Below, in pieces: positions 15,575 through 16,455 of a stretch of DNA of 64,000 nucleotides. This DNA comes from an uncultured Candidatus Saccharibacteria bacterium (lineage in GTDB: Bacteria > Patescibacteriota > Minisyncoccia > Phycocordibacterales > UBA6899). The notes beneath the pieces were generated by a model. It ran no database searches. It was not told the origin of the DNA and worked only from the letters and a program-made list of their open reading frames with translations. The position numbers were made by a program, and so were the translations under genes. The stretch's first letter is position 1; each line of letters opens with the position of its first letter. The stretch lies in NCBI GenBank assembly GCA_964386905.1, contig CAYLUP010000002.1:128522-192521 (forward strand), written 5' to 3'.

Positions 15575-15608
15575 GGGAGGACCCACAGGGTCCTCCCGCT
15601 TTTCTTTT
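15575..15608 (+). terminator. Rho-independent terminator (GGGAGGACCC-ACA-GGGTCCTCCC followed by a T-run)
   Basis: A perfect 10-bp stem followed by GCTTTTCTTTT. Confidence 0.65.
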
Positions 15609-15861
15609 ACAAAATGTAAAAGAACAGTATAATCGGTACACAATTTCCGTATTTGAGATTGTAAATATATTGGAGATATCGCATAAGAATGGCCCTGCGG
15701 GCACCAGGCATTCTTGTCGGTTAGGGAACTGCCGCCGCAGTGCATATTTGCATGAAGCAACTGCAAGCATTTGCTTCCCCGAAAGACTCTATGCAACGCG
15801 TGCTTTCGTTTCTTTTGTGTGTTGCTGATGATTGAATGCCCACGTTCGCAAATATTTATTT

Positions 15862-15948
15862 GGAGATGTCGCATAGAGGTCTAGTGCGCCCGCCTGGAAA
15901 GTGGGTATGGTGTCAAAGCCATCGGGAGTTCGAATCTCCCCATCTCCG
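15862..15948 (+). tRNA. tRNA-Ser (anticodon GGA), type II with a long variable arm
   Basis: Manual fold gives acceptor GGAGATG/CATCTCC, a 3-bp D stem, anticodon loop CTGGAAA, a variable stem-loop and the T-loop TTCGAAT. Confidence 0.85.
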
Positions 15949-15950
15949 CA

Positions 15951-16149
15951 ACGAATCACAGAAAAGGATACTTTTCTGTGATTTTTCGTTGCGCGAGACG
16001 CGGAGATTCGAAAGGCGGAGCCGGGCACCCTCACGCATGCGAAGCATCGTGCAGGGTCGGCGAGCCCGGGCAGGAGCCACCCCGTAGATTTCGAGCAAGG
16101 CGAAGAAATATACGGAGGTGAGCTGACGCCGAATCTCCCCATCTCCGCA
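15951..16149 (+). mobile_element. tRNA-3'-end-associated repeat unit S1 (type A core)
   Basis: It contains a terminator hairpin, an inverted T-arm copy (gcggagattcgaa), a conserved core, and a terminal direct repeat of the tRNA-Ser 3' end (16131-16149). Confidence 0.5.
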
Positions 16150-16395
16150 ACGAATCACAGAAAAGGATCCTTTTCTGTGATTTTTCGTTGCGCGAGATGC
16201 GGTAATTCGAACAGGAAAGGGTCAGAAAACTGGAGTTCTTTGGGGATGGGAGCAGCGAGTCTTCGAGCGTTGAGAATGAGCCTGTCCTGAACAATGAGCA
16301 AATTACTATTTGCGACTATGATTCAGGATGTGTCCTCAAGGAGCCACGAGCCTGTTAGGTGCGAGTGGCGACATGAGATTCTCCCCATCTCCGCA
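16150..16395 (+). mobile_element. tRNA-3'-end-associated repeat unit S2 (type B core)
   Basis: Its 5' part matches S1. The core resembles the tRNA-Arg units. It ends with an 18-bp copy of the tRNA-Ser 3' end (16380-16397). Confidence 0.5.
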
Positions 16396-16455
16396 ACAAA
16401 CCAGAAAAATGTGTAAGCATTTTTCTGGCCATCTCTTCTCTTGTATACTATATTC

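What the first reader, a model, noticed from the sequence alone, without database searches (positions are those of the whole stretch)
15862..16397. tRNA-Ser followed by two tandem non-coding units that each end with a copy of the tRNA 3' end
The last 18-19 nt of tRNA-Ser (GAATCTCCCCATCTCCGCA) recur as direct repeats at 16131-16149 and 16380-16397. They bound two units of 199 bp and 246 bp. Each unit begins with a terminator hairpin (CACAGAAAAGGAT(A/C)CTTTTCTGTG plus T-run) and then carries an inverted copy of the T-arm segment (gcggagattcgaa). This is the att-site-like architecture expected from serial site-specific integration at a tRNA 3' end. But the inserts are tiny and non-coding, and no integrase is present in the window. 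The same architecture recurs at two other tRNAs in this window.
Basis: seen in the sequence. Interest (0 to 1): 0.8.

Follow-up and report, generated by a model that had tools for sequence, protein, structure and literature searches.

The report
tRNA-tail-capped structured RNA cassettes
Behind three of the four tRNA genes in this window lie small non-coding cassettes, each closed by an inverted and a direct copy of that tRNA's own 3' end; the commonest type belongs to a strongly structured RNA-like family that I found behind tRNA and tmRNA genes across Patescibacteria and did not find in Rfam or the literature.

Summary
tRNA-Ser (15862-15949) is followed by two units of 199 and 246 bp. Each ends with a copy of the tRNA 3' end. 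tRNA-Arg and tRNA-Gly carry the same architecture.

These are not simple integrase scars. Unit 1 of Ser and both Gly units contain "core A". This is a ~120-nt three-way junction with strong covariation (116 copies in 80 Patescibacteria loci; 23 of 25 pairs show double changes). Rfam has no match. In other genomes core A sits 55-300 nt behind tRNAs of at least 15 amino-acid identities, and behind tmRNA. The 18 nt after it almost always equal C56-N73 of the local tRNA. An upstream inverted copy pairs with this tail.

A second family (core B) and further types use the same format. Relatives carry one unit where the window has two. They also lack a ~975-bp stretch of the Arg array. Cores at different tRNAs of one genome reach 97% identity, while their arms stay local.

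No recombinase is linked to the units.

Best reading: non-autonomous structured-RNA cassettes that are spread and homogenised by recombination at tRNA 3'-end repeats. The enzyme and the RNA's function are unknown.

The parts
15862..15949 (+). tRNA-Ser(GGA). Its 3' portion from C56 (15931) to N73 (15948), plus the following CA, is the repeated segment 'A'.
   Evidence: ARAGORN; Rfam tRNA 54.2 bits; repeat family D1/D2
15952..15988 (+). Terminator-type hairpin T1 of tRNA-Ser (stem-loop 15954-15983 plus a T run). It continues into a longer palindrome with the tRNA 3' end on one side and the mirror arm on the other.
   Evidence: Inverted repeats I2 and I6; sequence
15989..16012 (+). Mirror arm of Ser unit 1 (TTGCGCGAGACGCGGAGATTCGAA). 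It is an imperfect reverse complement of T54-N73 plus CAA.
   Evidence: I2, I5; RNA fold pairs it with the tail
16010..16130 (+). Core A of Ser unit 1. It is a three-way junction: GAAAGGCGGAGCC-hp1-GGCGAGCCCG-GGCAGGAGCCAC-hp2-GTGAGCTGACGCC.
   Evidence: Covariance model R1 hit 16002-16138, 102.5 bits, E 2e-32; fold z-score -4.2; covariation across the family
16130..16150 (+). Tail of unit 1. It is an exact copy of the tRNA-Ser 3' end (C56-N73 plus CAA).
   Evidence: D2, 100%
16151..16211 (+). Second copy of T1 (hairpin 16153-16182) plus the mirror arm of unit 2 (16188-16211). It shares the derived imperfections of mirror arm 1.
   Evidence: 82-nt repeat, 95% identical
16212..16376 (+). Body of Ser unit 2. 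It holds core B (AGGAAAGGGTC...GGGAGCAGCGAGTCTTCGAGCGT), an extra module shared with Arg unit 2, and a degenerate core-A-like 3' hairpin (AGGAGCCAC...GTGGCGAC).
   Evidence: Alignments; blastn against Arg unit 2; not hit by R1
16377..16431 (+). Tail 3 (GATTCTCCCCATCTCCGCAAC, 1 mismatch) plus a diverged terminator T3. This is the oldest, most distal copy.
   Evidence: D2, 85%
54845..54949 (+). tRNA-Arg(CCT) and its terminator hairpin (54921-54947).
54950..55075 (+). Arg unit 1: mirror arm (54950-54968, complement of G53-N72), core B (54969-55052) and tail (55053-55075, starting at G53).
   Evidence: I2, I3; orthologous units in L106 and L107; hairpin covariation
55076..55345 (+). Arg unit 2 (core-B-like start plus extra modules), tail 2 (55293-55315, 1 mismatch) and a degenerate terminator copy (55316-55345). 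The relative L106 lacks all of this.
55346..56077 (+). Cargo stretch inside the Arg array. It has a promoter-like site (55422-55450) and a 91-aa ORF with no Pfam hit (55532-55807). It ends with a partial tail (AGGGCA) and a terminator copy (56051-56077) whose loop is flipped.
   Evidence: I1; absent in L106
56641..56742 (+). tRNA-Gly(CCC) with its 3' segment and terminator (56694-56742).
56743..57109 (+). Two identical core-A units (208-nt period). Each has the acceptor-complement TGCGGGTAG, the conserved hairpin hp0, the T-arm complement GGAGAATCGAA, core A, the tail and a terminator copy.
   Evidence: D1, 100%; R1 hits 56780-56910 and 56988-57118, 104.8 bits; fold z-score -9.1; the relative L107 has a single unit
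57110..57160 (+). Third copy of the tRNA-Gly 3' end plus terminator. It closes the array and abuts the convergent Hsp20 gene.
   Evidence: D2, 96%

Best explanation
The units are small, non-autonomous cassettes. Each carries a structured RNA-type module.

**Families.**
- Core A is a ~120-nt three-way junction.
- Core B is a second family.
- Other module types exist in other genomes.

**Position and format.** Each cassette sits directly behind the terminator of a tRNA or tmRNA gene. It is bracketed by an inverted copy ('mirror arm') and a direct copy ('tail') of that gene's own 3' portion, running from the T loop to the discriminator. The two arms pair and close the module.

**How I think it works.**
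1. The tail is a duplication of the tRNA 3' segment, made when a cassette was placed there.
2. The 20-60-nt direct repeats then let arrays expand, contract and homogenise by recombination.
3. Cores are copied or converted between the tRNA loci of one genome through their conserved ends, while the arms stay local.
4. Further material, including small ORF cargo, accretes at the same repeats.
5. The module is functional on the tRNA-sense strand. It is most likely an RNA made by read-through from the tRNA promoter.

**Shown:** the family, its structure, the strand, the tRNA/tmRNA linkage, the local matching of arms, copy-number differences between relatives, and intragenomic similarity of cores.

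**Inferred:** the insertion chemistry, the trans-acting enzyme if there is one, transcription, and any cellular function.
For: **Family and structure**
- A genome-collection scan with the two core motifs gave 104 loci. About 80 are Patescibacteria MAGs.
- Covariance model R1 finds 116 copies in 80 loci.
- 89.5% of cells are paired, against 73.8% in shuffles. 23 of 25 pairs show double changes. The covariation score is 0.419, against 0.137 for shuffles (0 of 500 reach it) and at most 0.074 for slid controls.
- Rfam gives nothing but tRNA.

**Strand**
- In the core helices there are 23 G-U pairs against 5 A-C pairs.
- The top strand folds better in 74 of 84 units.

**Linkage to tRNA and tmRNA genes**
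- In about 55 copies the core lies 55-300 nt behind a same-strand tRNA. The identities seen are Tyr, Pro, Leu, Glu, Thr, Trp, Ser, Ile, Ala, Met, Asp, Gly, Arg, Cys and Val.
- The 18 nt after GAGCTGACGC equal C56-N73 of that tRNA with 0 mismatches in 35 of 47 cases and at most 1 in 38 of 47.
- The core also lies behind tmRNA genes (SmpB neighbours).

**Mirror arm**
- The eight P1 pairs covary with the local T stem.

**A general format**
- Core B and other modules use the same mirror-X-tail layout in other genomes.

**Dynamics**
- L107 has one Gly unit and the window has two.
- L106 lacks the ~975-bp stretch of the Arg array.
- The repeats inside each genome are identical, although they differ between genomes.
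- Proximal tails are mostly perfect and distal tails decayed.

**Intragenomic copying**
- Core identity averages 0.79 within genomes and 0.68 between genomes.
- Identity reaches 0.97 between cores at tRNA-Asp and tRNA-Thr of one genome, with local arms.
- Some units are mosaics.

**Non-autonomy**
- No recombinase or reverse transcriptase is in the window.
- None is consistently near 150 units.
Against: - No enzyme is identified, and no truly empty orthologous tRNA site was recovered. Insertion is therefore inferred, not seen.
- The arms match the local tRNA even where a conserved hairpin (hp0) interrupts the mirror arm. A simple cut-and-paste or target-site-duplication mechanism does not explain this.
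- Junction positions differ between core A and core B. This argues against a single fixed crossover point.
- Module types share no terminal sequences.
- The units persist at the same tRNAs in relatives whose flanking FtsB-like protein is 77-83% identical. They are therefore not highly mobile, and concerted evolution of old resident genes could mimic 'spread'.
- No transcription data exist. There is no room for a promoter between the terminator and the mirror arm.
Confidence: 0.45

Rival explanations
1. Classical serial site-specific integration. Each unit is the remnant, or a satellite, of an integrative element whose attP carries the tRNA 3' end. A tyrosine or serine integrase encoded elsewhere inserts it at the T loop. 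The conserved core is simply the attP-proximal arm of one widespread element family.
For: - Direct repeats run from the T loop to the tRNA end.
- tmRNA is also a target.
- Tandem arrays have decayed distal copies.
- Some arrays carry ORF cargo: the window's Arg array, L015 with HicAB, and L078.
- This is the pattern described for additive tRNA islands and tycheposons.
- In loci such as L001 the terminator before the unit differs from the one after the tail, as expected if the element brought its own 3' end and terminator.
Against: - The same core lies behind at least 15 tRNA identities, with arms matched locally. Integrase families are tRNA-specific.
- No T-stem 5' strand or core-type site lies left of the tail; the conserved GAGCTGACGCC is there instead.
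- The junction differs between core A and core B.
- No integrase was found in the window or among the commonest families in 150 neighbouring ORFs.
- IMG/VR, phage and plasmid collections gave 0 hits.
- RNA-type covariation with a G-U bias is not expected of protein-binding arm sites.
Confidence: 0.15
2. Resident host RNA genes that are not mobile. Core A, core B and the others are functional small RNAs co-transcribed with tRNAs. Their closing helix copies the neighbour's acceptor/T-arm, so that tRNA-processing enzymes (RNase P, RNase Z, CCA-adding enzyme) cut them out. The tails stay identical to the tRNA, and cores stay alike within a genome, through gene conversion alone.
For: - Covariation is strong and internal-loop sequences are conserved.
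- The strand bias favours the tRNA-sense strand.
- The units are inherited vertically at the same tRNAs in relatives.
- Several unrelated modules share the same tRNA-like closing helix.
- In the hp0 subfamily the extra hairpin sits exactly at the acceptor/T-stem junction, giving a tRNA-like topology.
- Two orthologous non-tRNA copies (L051, L084) keep the closing stem through G-U and compensatory changes.
- Mosaic cores fit gene conversion.
Against: - The mirror arm pairs with the discriminator and trailer as well, so the helix is not a faithful pre-tRNA end.
- Tails decay in distal copies, so exact identity is not required.
- Only about 25-45% of tRNAs in the sampled loci carry a unit.
- The model does not explain how the format arose at so many different tRNAs.
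- No promoter is evident and a terminator lies upstream.
Confidence: 0.2
3. Origin by copying errors, either RNA-mediated or through template switching. A polymerase or reverse transcriptase folds back at the tRNA terminator hairpin and copies the tRNA 3' end in reverse, which makes the mirror arm. It then switches into another unit's core at the T-loop microhomology (TTCGAA is a palindrome). Finally it switches back at C56, which makes the tail. Alternatively, cDNA is made from tRNA transcripts' natural 3' ends and joined to a core RNA.
For: - tRNA 3' end, terminator and mirror arm form one contiguous palindrome in W-Ser, W-Gly, L001 and L103.
- The junctions lie at the conserved, palindromic T-loop sequence.
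- The right boundary of the duplicated segment varies: N73 plus a few nt, the end of the terminator, or N73 plus CCA. In 4 of 47 cases the tail carries CCA although the gene itself lacks it.
- Cores within a genome are similar while the arms are local.
Against: - It does not explain loci where the terminators on the two sides differ.
- It does not explain mirror arms interrupted by the conserved hairpin hp0.
- The CCA cases are equally explained if the distal copy is the original gene end with CCA encoded.
- It needs three coordinated switches per event.
- No reverse transcriptase was seen in the window.
Confidence: 0.12
4. Chance similarity or an assembly artefact. The repeats are collapsed or chimeric assembly products, or random matches.
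For: Short-read contigs do break at these repeats; the Logan contig L105 starts inside unit 1.
Against: - The motifs occur 3 times, against 0.00-0.01 expected.
- The same architecture appears in about 80 independent assemblies, including complete chromosomes, and in orthologous loci of two relatives.
- The covariation statistics are strong.
Confidence: 0.01

Closest known systems
Additive tRNA-gene islands and tycheposon-type integrative elements (Hackl et al., bioRxiv 10.1101/2020.12.28.424599)
   Same: - They integrate at the 3' part of tRNA and tmRNA genes.
- Partial tRNA copies flank each insert.
- Arrays are tandem, with newer elements next to the tRNA and decayed remnants distally.
- Small cargo genes occur.
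   Different: - Those elements carry tRNA-specific integrases and are kilobases long.
- Here the inserts are 150-250 nt and no recombinase is linked to them.
- One conserved structured core serves at least 15 tRNA identities.
- Each insert also carries an inverted copy of the target.
Integron gene cassettes with folded attC sites, and hairpin attP elements that use host Xer recombinases (CTX phage type). This comparison rests on my own knowledge.
   Same: - An imperfect inverted repeat folds on one strand.
- Its structure rather than its sequence is conserved in the stem.
- Cassettes form arrays at one anchor site.
- Toxin-antitoxin cargo occurs (HicAB in L015).
- The mobile unit itself carries no recombinase.
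   Different: - No intI was seen, there are no R/L boxes (GTTRRRY), and the anchor is a tRNA T loop rather than attI or dif.
- The central part (core A) is highly conserved and covaries like an RNA. The variable terminal structure of attC does not.
TnpB/IscB omega-RNAs of IS200/IS605 elements. This comparison rests on my own knowledge.
   Same: A conserved ~120-nt scaffold is followed directly by ~20 nt that equal the flanking target. The T-loop TTC lies where a T-rich adjacent motif would be.
   Different: - No tnpB or iscB is adjacent.
- There is no match to Rfam omega-RNA or HEARO-type models.
- An extra inverted copy masks the 'guide'.
- The upstream tRNA is intact rather than split.
Miniature inverted-repeat elements (MITEs, REP-type repeats)
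   Same: They are small and non-coding, present in many copies per genome, have inverted-repeat ends, are more alike within than between genomes, and depend on functions supplied in trans.
   Different: - The inverted ends are copies of the local target, not of the element.
- The duplicated target is 19 to more than 60 nt and variable in length.
- Location is strictly behind tRNA/tmRNA terminators and in the tRNA orientation.
tRNA-like processing handles on other RNAs (tmRNA upper half, mascRNA of MALAT1, herpesvirus tRNA-miRNA units). This comparison rests on my own knowledge, plus the tmRNA reviews listed.
   Same: A helix imitating the acceptor and T stems closes a non-tRNA RNA, so tRNA enzymes could define its ends.
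   Different: - The T loop is replaced by the module.
- The helix also pairs the discriminator and trailer.
- The helix copies the specific neighbouring tRNA.

Membership tests
Integrase-mediated tRNA-integrating element (genomic island, prophage or tycheposon type) | Insert flanked by direct repeats of the tRNA 3' part | tested here: met
Integrase-mediated tRNA-integrating element (genomic island, prophage or tycheposon type) | Tyrosine or serine recombinase gene in the element or array | tested here: not met
   No recombinase in the 64-kb window (Pfam). Among 150 ORFs within 2.5 kb of units in other genomes, 2 are large serine recombinases, and no integrase family is among the commonest hits. 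The L074 recombinase family lacks core A at 80 further loci.
Integrase-mediated tRNA-integrating element (genomic island, prophage or tycheposon type) | One element family is tied to one tRNA target through its attP | tested here: not met
   The same core lies at tRNAs of at least 15 amino-acid identities and at tmRNA, with tails matching the local gene.
Known RNA families (Rfam 15, 4227 models, including tRNA, tmRNA, group I/II introns, self-cleaving ribozymes and HEARO/omega-type RNAs) | Covariance-model score at or above the family's gathering score | tested here: not met
   Only the four tRNAs pass. At E up to 10 the units give only chance-level hairpin (miRNA-type) matches.
Integron cassette / attC | Imperfect palindrome with R/L boxes (GTTRRRY core site) and an integron integrase nearby | tested here: not met
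   The junction sequences are TTCGAA|AGG and GCC|GAATC. No integrase is in the window. Folding on one strand is present, but that alone is not diagnostic.
MITE | Element-specific terminal inverted repeats and a fixed-length target-site duplication | tested here: not met
   The inverted ends equal the local tRNA 3' end and differ between loci. The duplicated length ranges from 19 to more than 100 nt.
IS200/IS605 omega-RNA (TnpB/IscB guide) | Scaffold at the transposon's right end, next to or overlapping tnpB/iscB, with the flank serving as guide | tested here: not met
   The layout of scaffold plus flank-identical 3' segment is present. But the upstream neighbour is a tRNA 55-300 nt away, and no TnpB/IscB was found in the window.
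Structured non-coding RNA (generic) | Helices supported by compensatory changes, with a strand-specific G-U bias | tested here: met
Structured non-coding RNA (generic) | Evidence of transcription and defined ends | not testable with these tools
   No transcriptome data are available. The promoter scan shows only a promoter upstream of tRNA-Ser.
tRNA-like structure or tmRNA-type mimic | Acceptor stem with a free discriminator/CCA end, plus a T arm with a T loop | tested here: not met
   ARAGORN does not call the units. The T loop is replaced by the core. The mirror arm pairs with N73 and the trailer.

The most novel reading that the evidence does not exclude
Core A, and analogously core B, is the active RNA of a new class of tRNA-homing elements. 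On this reading it is a guide or ribozyme RNA. Its mirror arm reads the T-loop-to-acceptor segment of a tRNA or tmRNA gene, or of its transcript. It directs its own copying into the space behind that gene, and in doing so regenerates both arms from the target. That would make it an RNA-programmed mobile element with no protein gene of its own in cis.
Probability: 0.1. Interest if true: 0.92.

Novelty: new variant of a known kind. Interest (0 to 1): 0.72.

Why it matters
Patescibacteria have tiny genomes with little spare DNA. Even so, in the sampled loci a quarter or more of tRNA genes drag along one to three of these cassettes. That implies either a strong selfish drive or a real function.

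The family gives RNA biologists a new, deeply covarying fold of about 120 nt. It has conserved GA-rich internal loops and no assigned function.

It gives mobile-element biologists a case where both ends of an insert are copies of the target, one of them inverted. No standard recombinase or transposase model predicts this.

There are also practical consequences:
- The repeats break short-read assemblies at tRNA loci.
- They create spurious ORFs, for example 15789-16142 (-) and 56655-57101 (+).
- They can mediate rearrangements between tRNA loci; in L111 the mirror arm matches tRNA-Arg but the tail is tRNA-Gly-like.

Model R1 can now be used to annotate these units.

Tried and rejected
1. **Known RNA families.** Rfam at gathering and at permissive thresholds gave only tRNAs.

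2. **Primer-binding-site reading.** I considered the mirror arm as a retroviral-type site complementary to mature tRNA. It complements the gene-encoded trailer (CA/CAA) rather than CCA, so I rejected this.

3. **Units as degenerate tRNA gene copies.** The mirror arm fits the reverse complement of the 3' strand, including the T-loop positions and discriminator. It does not fit the tRNA's own 5' strand. The informative positions were too few to be decisive.

4. **Phage or plasmid origin.** The IMG/VR pattern scan gave 0 hits, and blastn against phage and plasmid collections gave no match.

5. **Large serine recombinase as the mobiliser.** In L074 such a gene sits between tRNA-Ser and a core-A unit.
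   - Its family (at least 573 metagenome relatives) is always next to tRNA-Ser.
   - In the four loci examined it is flanked by 134-158-bp inverted repeats.
   - 80 such loci contain no core A.
   - I rejected it as the general enzyme.

6. **Empty sites.**
   - The FtsB-like neighbour gave two informative relatives.
   - More distant Hsp20 relatives have no tRNA-Gly at that position at all.
   - The gene downstream of tRNA-Ser has no close orthologue.
   - The Ser locus could therefore not be compared across strains.

7. **The 222-nt leader upstream of tRNA-Ser as a third element.** Its fold is no better than shuffled sequence (z -0.34) and it has no relatives in the held loci.

8. **Literature.** Seven full-text searches found no description of this architecture.
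Full report
**1. The observation**

tRNA-Ser(GGA) lies at 15862-15949. Its last ~19 nt recur at 16131-16149 exactly, and at 16377-16397 with one mismatch. The spacings are 199 and 246 nt.

The first two copies belong to an 82-nt repeat (15931-16012 / 16130-16211, 95% identical). This repeat is itself one long imperfect palindrome made of three parts:
- the tRNA 3' end;
- a terminator-type hairpin;
- an inverted copy of the tRNA 3' end, which I call the mirror arm (15989-16012 and 16188-16211).

The same layout is present at tRNA-Arg (54845-54917) and tRNA-Gly (56641-56712). The Gly locus has a perfect 208-nt tandem duplication. tRNA-Phe has none.

**2. Anatomy**

I read each unit as mirror arm - module - tail, sitting after the tRNA's own terminator.

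Ser unit 1 and the two Gly units share a module I call core A:
- GAAAGRCGGAGSC-hp1-GSCGAGYCCG-GGCAGGAGCCAC-hp2-GTGAGCTGACGCC.
- Both fold into the same three-way junction, closed by mirror arm and tail (z -4.2 and -9.1).
- There are compensatory changes between the two loci.

Ser unit 2 and the Arg units carry a different module, core B, plus extra pieces.

Both the tail and the mirror arm match the local tRNA (Ser, Gly or Arg).

The window is a housekeeping stretch of a Patescibacteria chromosome. It encodes rpoB/C, groEL, sigma factors and aminoacyl-tRNA synthetases. It has no integrase, transposase or reverse transcriptase.

**3. Core A is a widespread, structured family**

A scan of one genome per species with GGCAGGAGCC-N25-55-GTGAGCTGACG returned 104 loci. 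About 80 are Patescibacteria MAGs: Saccharibacteria, Kaiserbacteria, Paceibacteria, Spechtbacterales, Peregrinibacteria and others. The rest are chance hits in high-GC genomes.

A covariance model (R1, 121 positions, 25 pairs) finds 116 copies in 80 loci, including diverged ones that the pattern had missed. On that alignment:
- 89.5% of cells pair, against 73.8% in shuffles.
- 23 of 25 pairs show changes on both sides.
- The covariation score is 0.419, against 0.137 for shuffles (0 of 500 reach it).
- Slid controls score at most 0.074.

In the core helices G-U outnumbers A-C 23 to 5. The tRNA-sense strand folds better in 74 of 84 units. The functional strand is therefore the tRNA-sense strand, as expected for an RNA.

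Rfam 15 has no match. IMG/VR, phage and plasmid collections have none. Seven literature searches found no description.

**4. Linkage to tRNA and tmRNA genes**

In about 55 copies the core lies 55-300 nt downstream of a same-strand tRNA. The identities are Tyr, Pro, Leu, Glu, Thr, Trp, Ser, Ile, Ala, Met, Asp, Gly, Arg, Cys and Val.

The 18 nt after ...GAGCTGACGC equal C56-N73 of that tRNA with no mismatch in 35 of 47 cases, and at most one in 38 of 47.

Copies that ARAGORN left without a tRNA turned out to follow tmRNA genes or intron-bearing tRNAs. SmpB is the commonest neighbouring protein.

The duplicated segment starts at a fixed point (C56/R57). It ends variably: at N73 plus a few nt, at N73 plus CCA, or after the terminator.

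The mirror arm is complementary to the T-loop 3' half and the T-stem 3' strand in nearly all units, and it covaries with them. Its acceptor-complement part is often decayed. In a large subfamily a conserved hairpin, hp0 (GAGCAAGCAAACTGCTTTGCTTGCGT), interrupts it exactly at the acceptor/T-stem junction.

About a quarter of bystander tRNAs in the same loci also carry a downstream copy of their 3' end.

**5. The format is general**

Core B units with a mirror arm and a tail occur behind tRNA-Met (L083), tRNA-Tyr (L092) and tRNA-Arg (L111, L106, L107) in other genomes. Its first hairpin covaries.

Further, unrelated modules use the same format (L015 Trp, L059 Arg, L104 Arg).

The module types share no terminal sequences, and they join the tail at different T-loop positions: core A at C56/R57 and core B at G53. 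What is common is the pair of arms derived from the local tRNA.

**6. Dynamics**

Orthologous loci were recovered through the FtsB-like neighbour.
- L107 (FtsB-like protein 77% identical) has tRNA-Gly with one core-A unit where the window has two.
- L106 (83% identical) has tRNA-Arg with one core-B unit, followed directly by the tail and terminator.
- The window therefore carries an additional ~975 bp (55076-56050). This stretch holds unit 2, a second tail, a degenerate terminator, a promoter-like site and a 91-aa ORF. It ends in a partial tail.

The terminator sequences differ between genomes, but their copies within a genome are identical. The repeats are therefore homogenised.

In arrays the proximal tail is usually perfect and the distal one decayed. 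There is one counter-example, L090.

Cores are more alike within genomes than between them (0.79 against 0.68). Pairs at different tRNAs reach 0.97 (Asp/Thr), 0.93 (Arg/tmRNA) and 0.92, while their arms remain local.

Mosaics are common. Window Ser and Gly share hp2 but not hp1. The L106 Gly unit switches to a core-B-like sequence after hp1.

Cargo-bearing arrays exist: L015 with HicAB, and L078.

**7. Search for an enzyme**

Among 150 ORFs within 2.5 kb of units, almost all are housekeeping genes. Two are large serine recombinases.

In L074 one of these lies between tRNA-Ser and a core-A unit, inside ~150-bp inverted repeats that run on into the tRNA 3' end and a perfect 22-nt mirror arm.

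Its family is abundant in metagenomes (at least 573 relatives). Wherever the held contig reaches past the gene, it converges on a tRNA-Ser. In the four loci examined it is flanked by 134-158-bp inverted repeats. But 80 such loci hold no core A. It is a separate tRNA-Ser element and not the general mobiliser.

**8. Interpretation**

The data establish a new family, or rather a format with several families, of structured and probably RNA-level modules lodged behind tRNA/tmRNA terminators and closed by target-derived arms.

My best-supported account (confidence 0.45) is that these are non-autonomous cassettes:
1. The tail is a duplication of the tRNA 3' segment made at placement.
2. Arrays grow, shrink and homogenise through those repeats.
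3. Cores are copied or converted between tRNA loci through their conserved ends.

The rivals are:
- a classical trans-integrase model (0.15), disfavoured by the multi-tRNA range, the junction sequences and the absence of integrases;
- purely resident RNA genes with tRNA-like processing handles and concerted evolution (0.20), disfavoured by decaying tails, patchy occupancy and a helix that also pairs the discriminator and trailer;
- fold-back or template-switch or reverse-transcription origin (0.12), which neatly explains the contiguous palindrome and the variable right boundary, but not loci with different terminators on the two sides, nor hp0;
- artefact (0.01).

These accounts overlap. None explains how both arms come to match each new tRNA. 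That is the truly odd feature, and it leaves room for an RNA-programmed mechanism (probability about 0.1).

**9. Verdict**

The object is new relative to Rfam 15 and to the literature I could search, and it is widespread. Interest 0.72.

Noticed in passing
L074:100-2400 and L114-L193 (for example L143:3737-5600, L158:1-1940): A large serine recombinase family with at least 573 metagenome relatives. Wherever the held contig reaches past the gene, it converges on a tRNA-Ser. In the four loci examined the gene is flanked by 134-158-bp inverted repeats (94-99% complementary) that run into the tRNA 3' end. The far side carries a pseudo tRNA 3' end (GGTTCGAAT...AAAAGGTACCGCCA) or, in L158, a second complete tRNA-Ser in inverted orientation. 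Many contigs end at this gene.
   Followed up: partly
window 15606-15861: A near-consensus promoter-like site (TTTACA-16-TATAAT, 15606-15633) lies ~225 nt upstream of tRNA-Ser. The intervening leader contains a 21-nt look-alike of the tRNA's 5' end (GGAGATATCGCATAAGAATGG, 15672-15692). The leader folds no better than shuffled sequence and has no relatives in the held loci.
   Followed up: partly
window 54921-54947 and 56051-56077: The two copies of the tRNA-Arg terminator hairpin have identical stems, but their 4-nt loops are reverse complements (ATAC against GTAT). This is a 'flipped' loop, as after an inversion or template switch within the palindrome.
   Followed up: no
window 55422-55807: Inside the tRNA-Arg array there is a promoter-like site (TTGACT-17-TATAAT with a TG extension) followed by a 91-aa hydrophobic ORF with no Pfam match. 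The whole stretch is absent from the relative L106.
   Followed up: partly
window 15948-15951, 54916-54919, 56711-56714, 54138-54141; also L001-L104: tRNA genes in these genomes mostly do not encode CCA. Instead the discriminator is followed by CA(A), a pattern shared by tRNAs with and without cassettes. In 4 of 47 units the tail is followed by CCA although the adjacent gene has CAA, CTG or TAA.
   Followed up: partly
L111:4650-5020 (- strand): A chimeric core-B unit. Its mirror arm matches the adjacent tRNA-Arg(TCG), but its tail is a tRNA-Gly-like 3' end (TTCTCTCTACCCGCA). This suggests a rearrangement between units at two tRNA loci. In this relative, tRNA-Gly is missing from the FtsB/Hsp20 interval where the window has it.
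   Followed up: partly
L051:5631-5756 and L084:4361-4482: Two orthologous core-A copies that are not next to a tRNA. They follow the terminator of a topoisomerase-type zinc-ribbon gene and precede a RelA/SpoT gene. Their closing stem is kept by G-U and compensatory changes rather than by tRNA sequence.
   Followed up: partly
L015:666-2975 and L078:5597-7540: Gene cargo lies between two near-identical core-A units that carry the same tRNA tail. L015 has a HicA/HicB-like pair plus a 226-aa protein. L078 has three small proteins, one of which looks SET-domain-like by eye. These identifications come from reading the translations, not from a family search.
   Followed up: no
window 15789-16142 (-), 15836-16087 (+), 56655-57101 (+), 54856-55188 (-): Long spurious ORFs (83-148 aa) run through the GC-rich cassettes and the tRNAs. 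Gene callers are likely to annotate them as hypothetical proteins.
   Followed up: no
L105:1-330: An independent short-read assembly of the same organism (Logan SRR27710297) breaks exactly inside the tRNA-Ser array. The repeats therefore fragment assemblies at tRNA loci.
   Followed up: no
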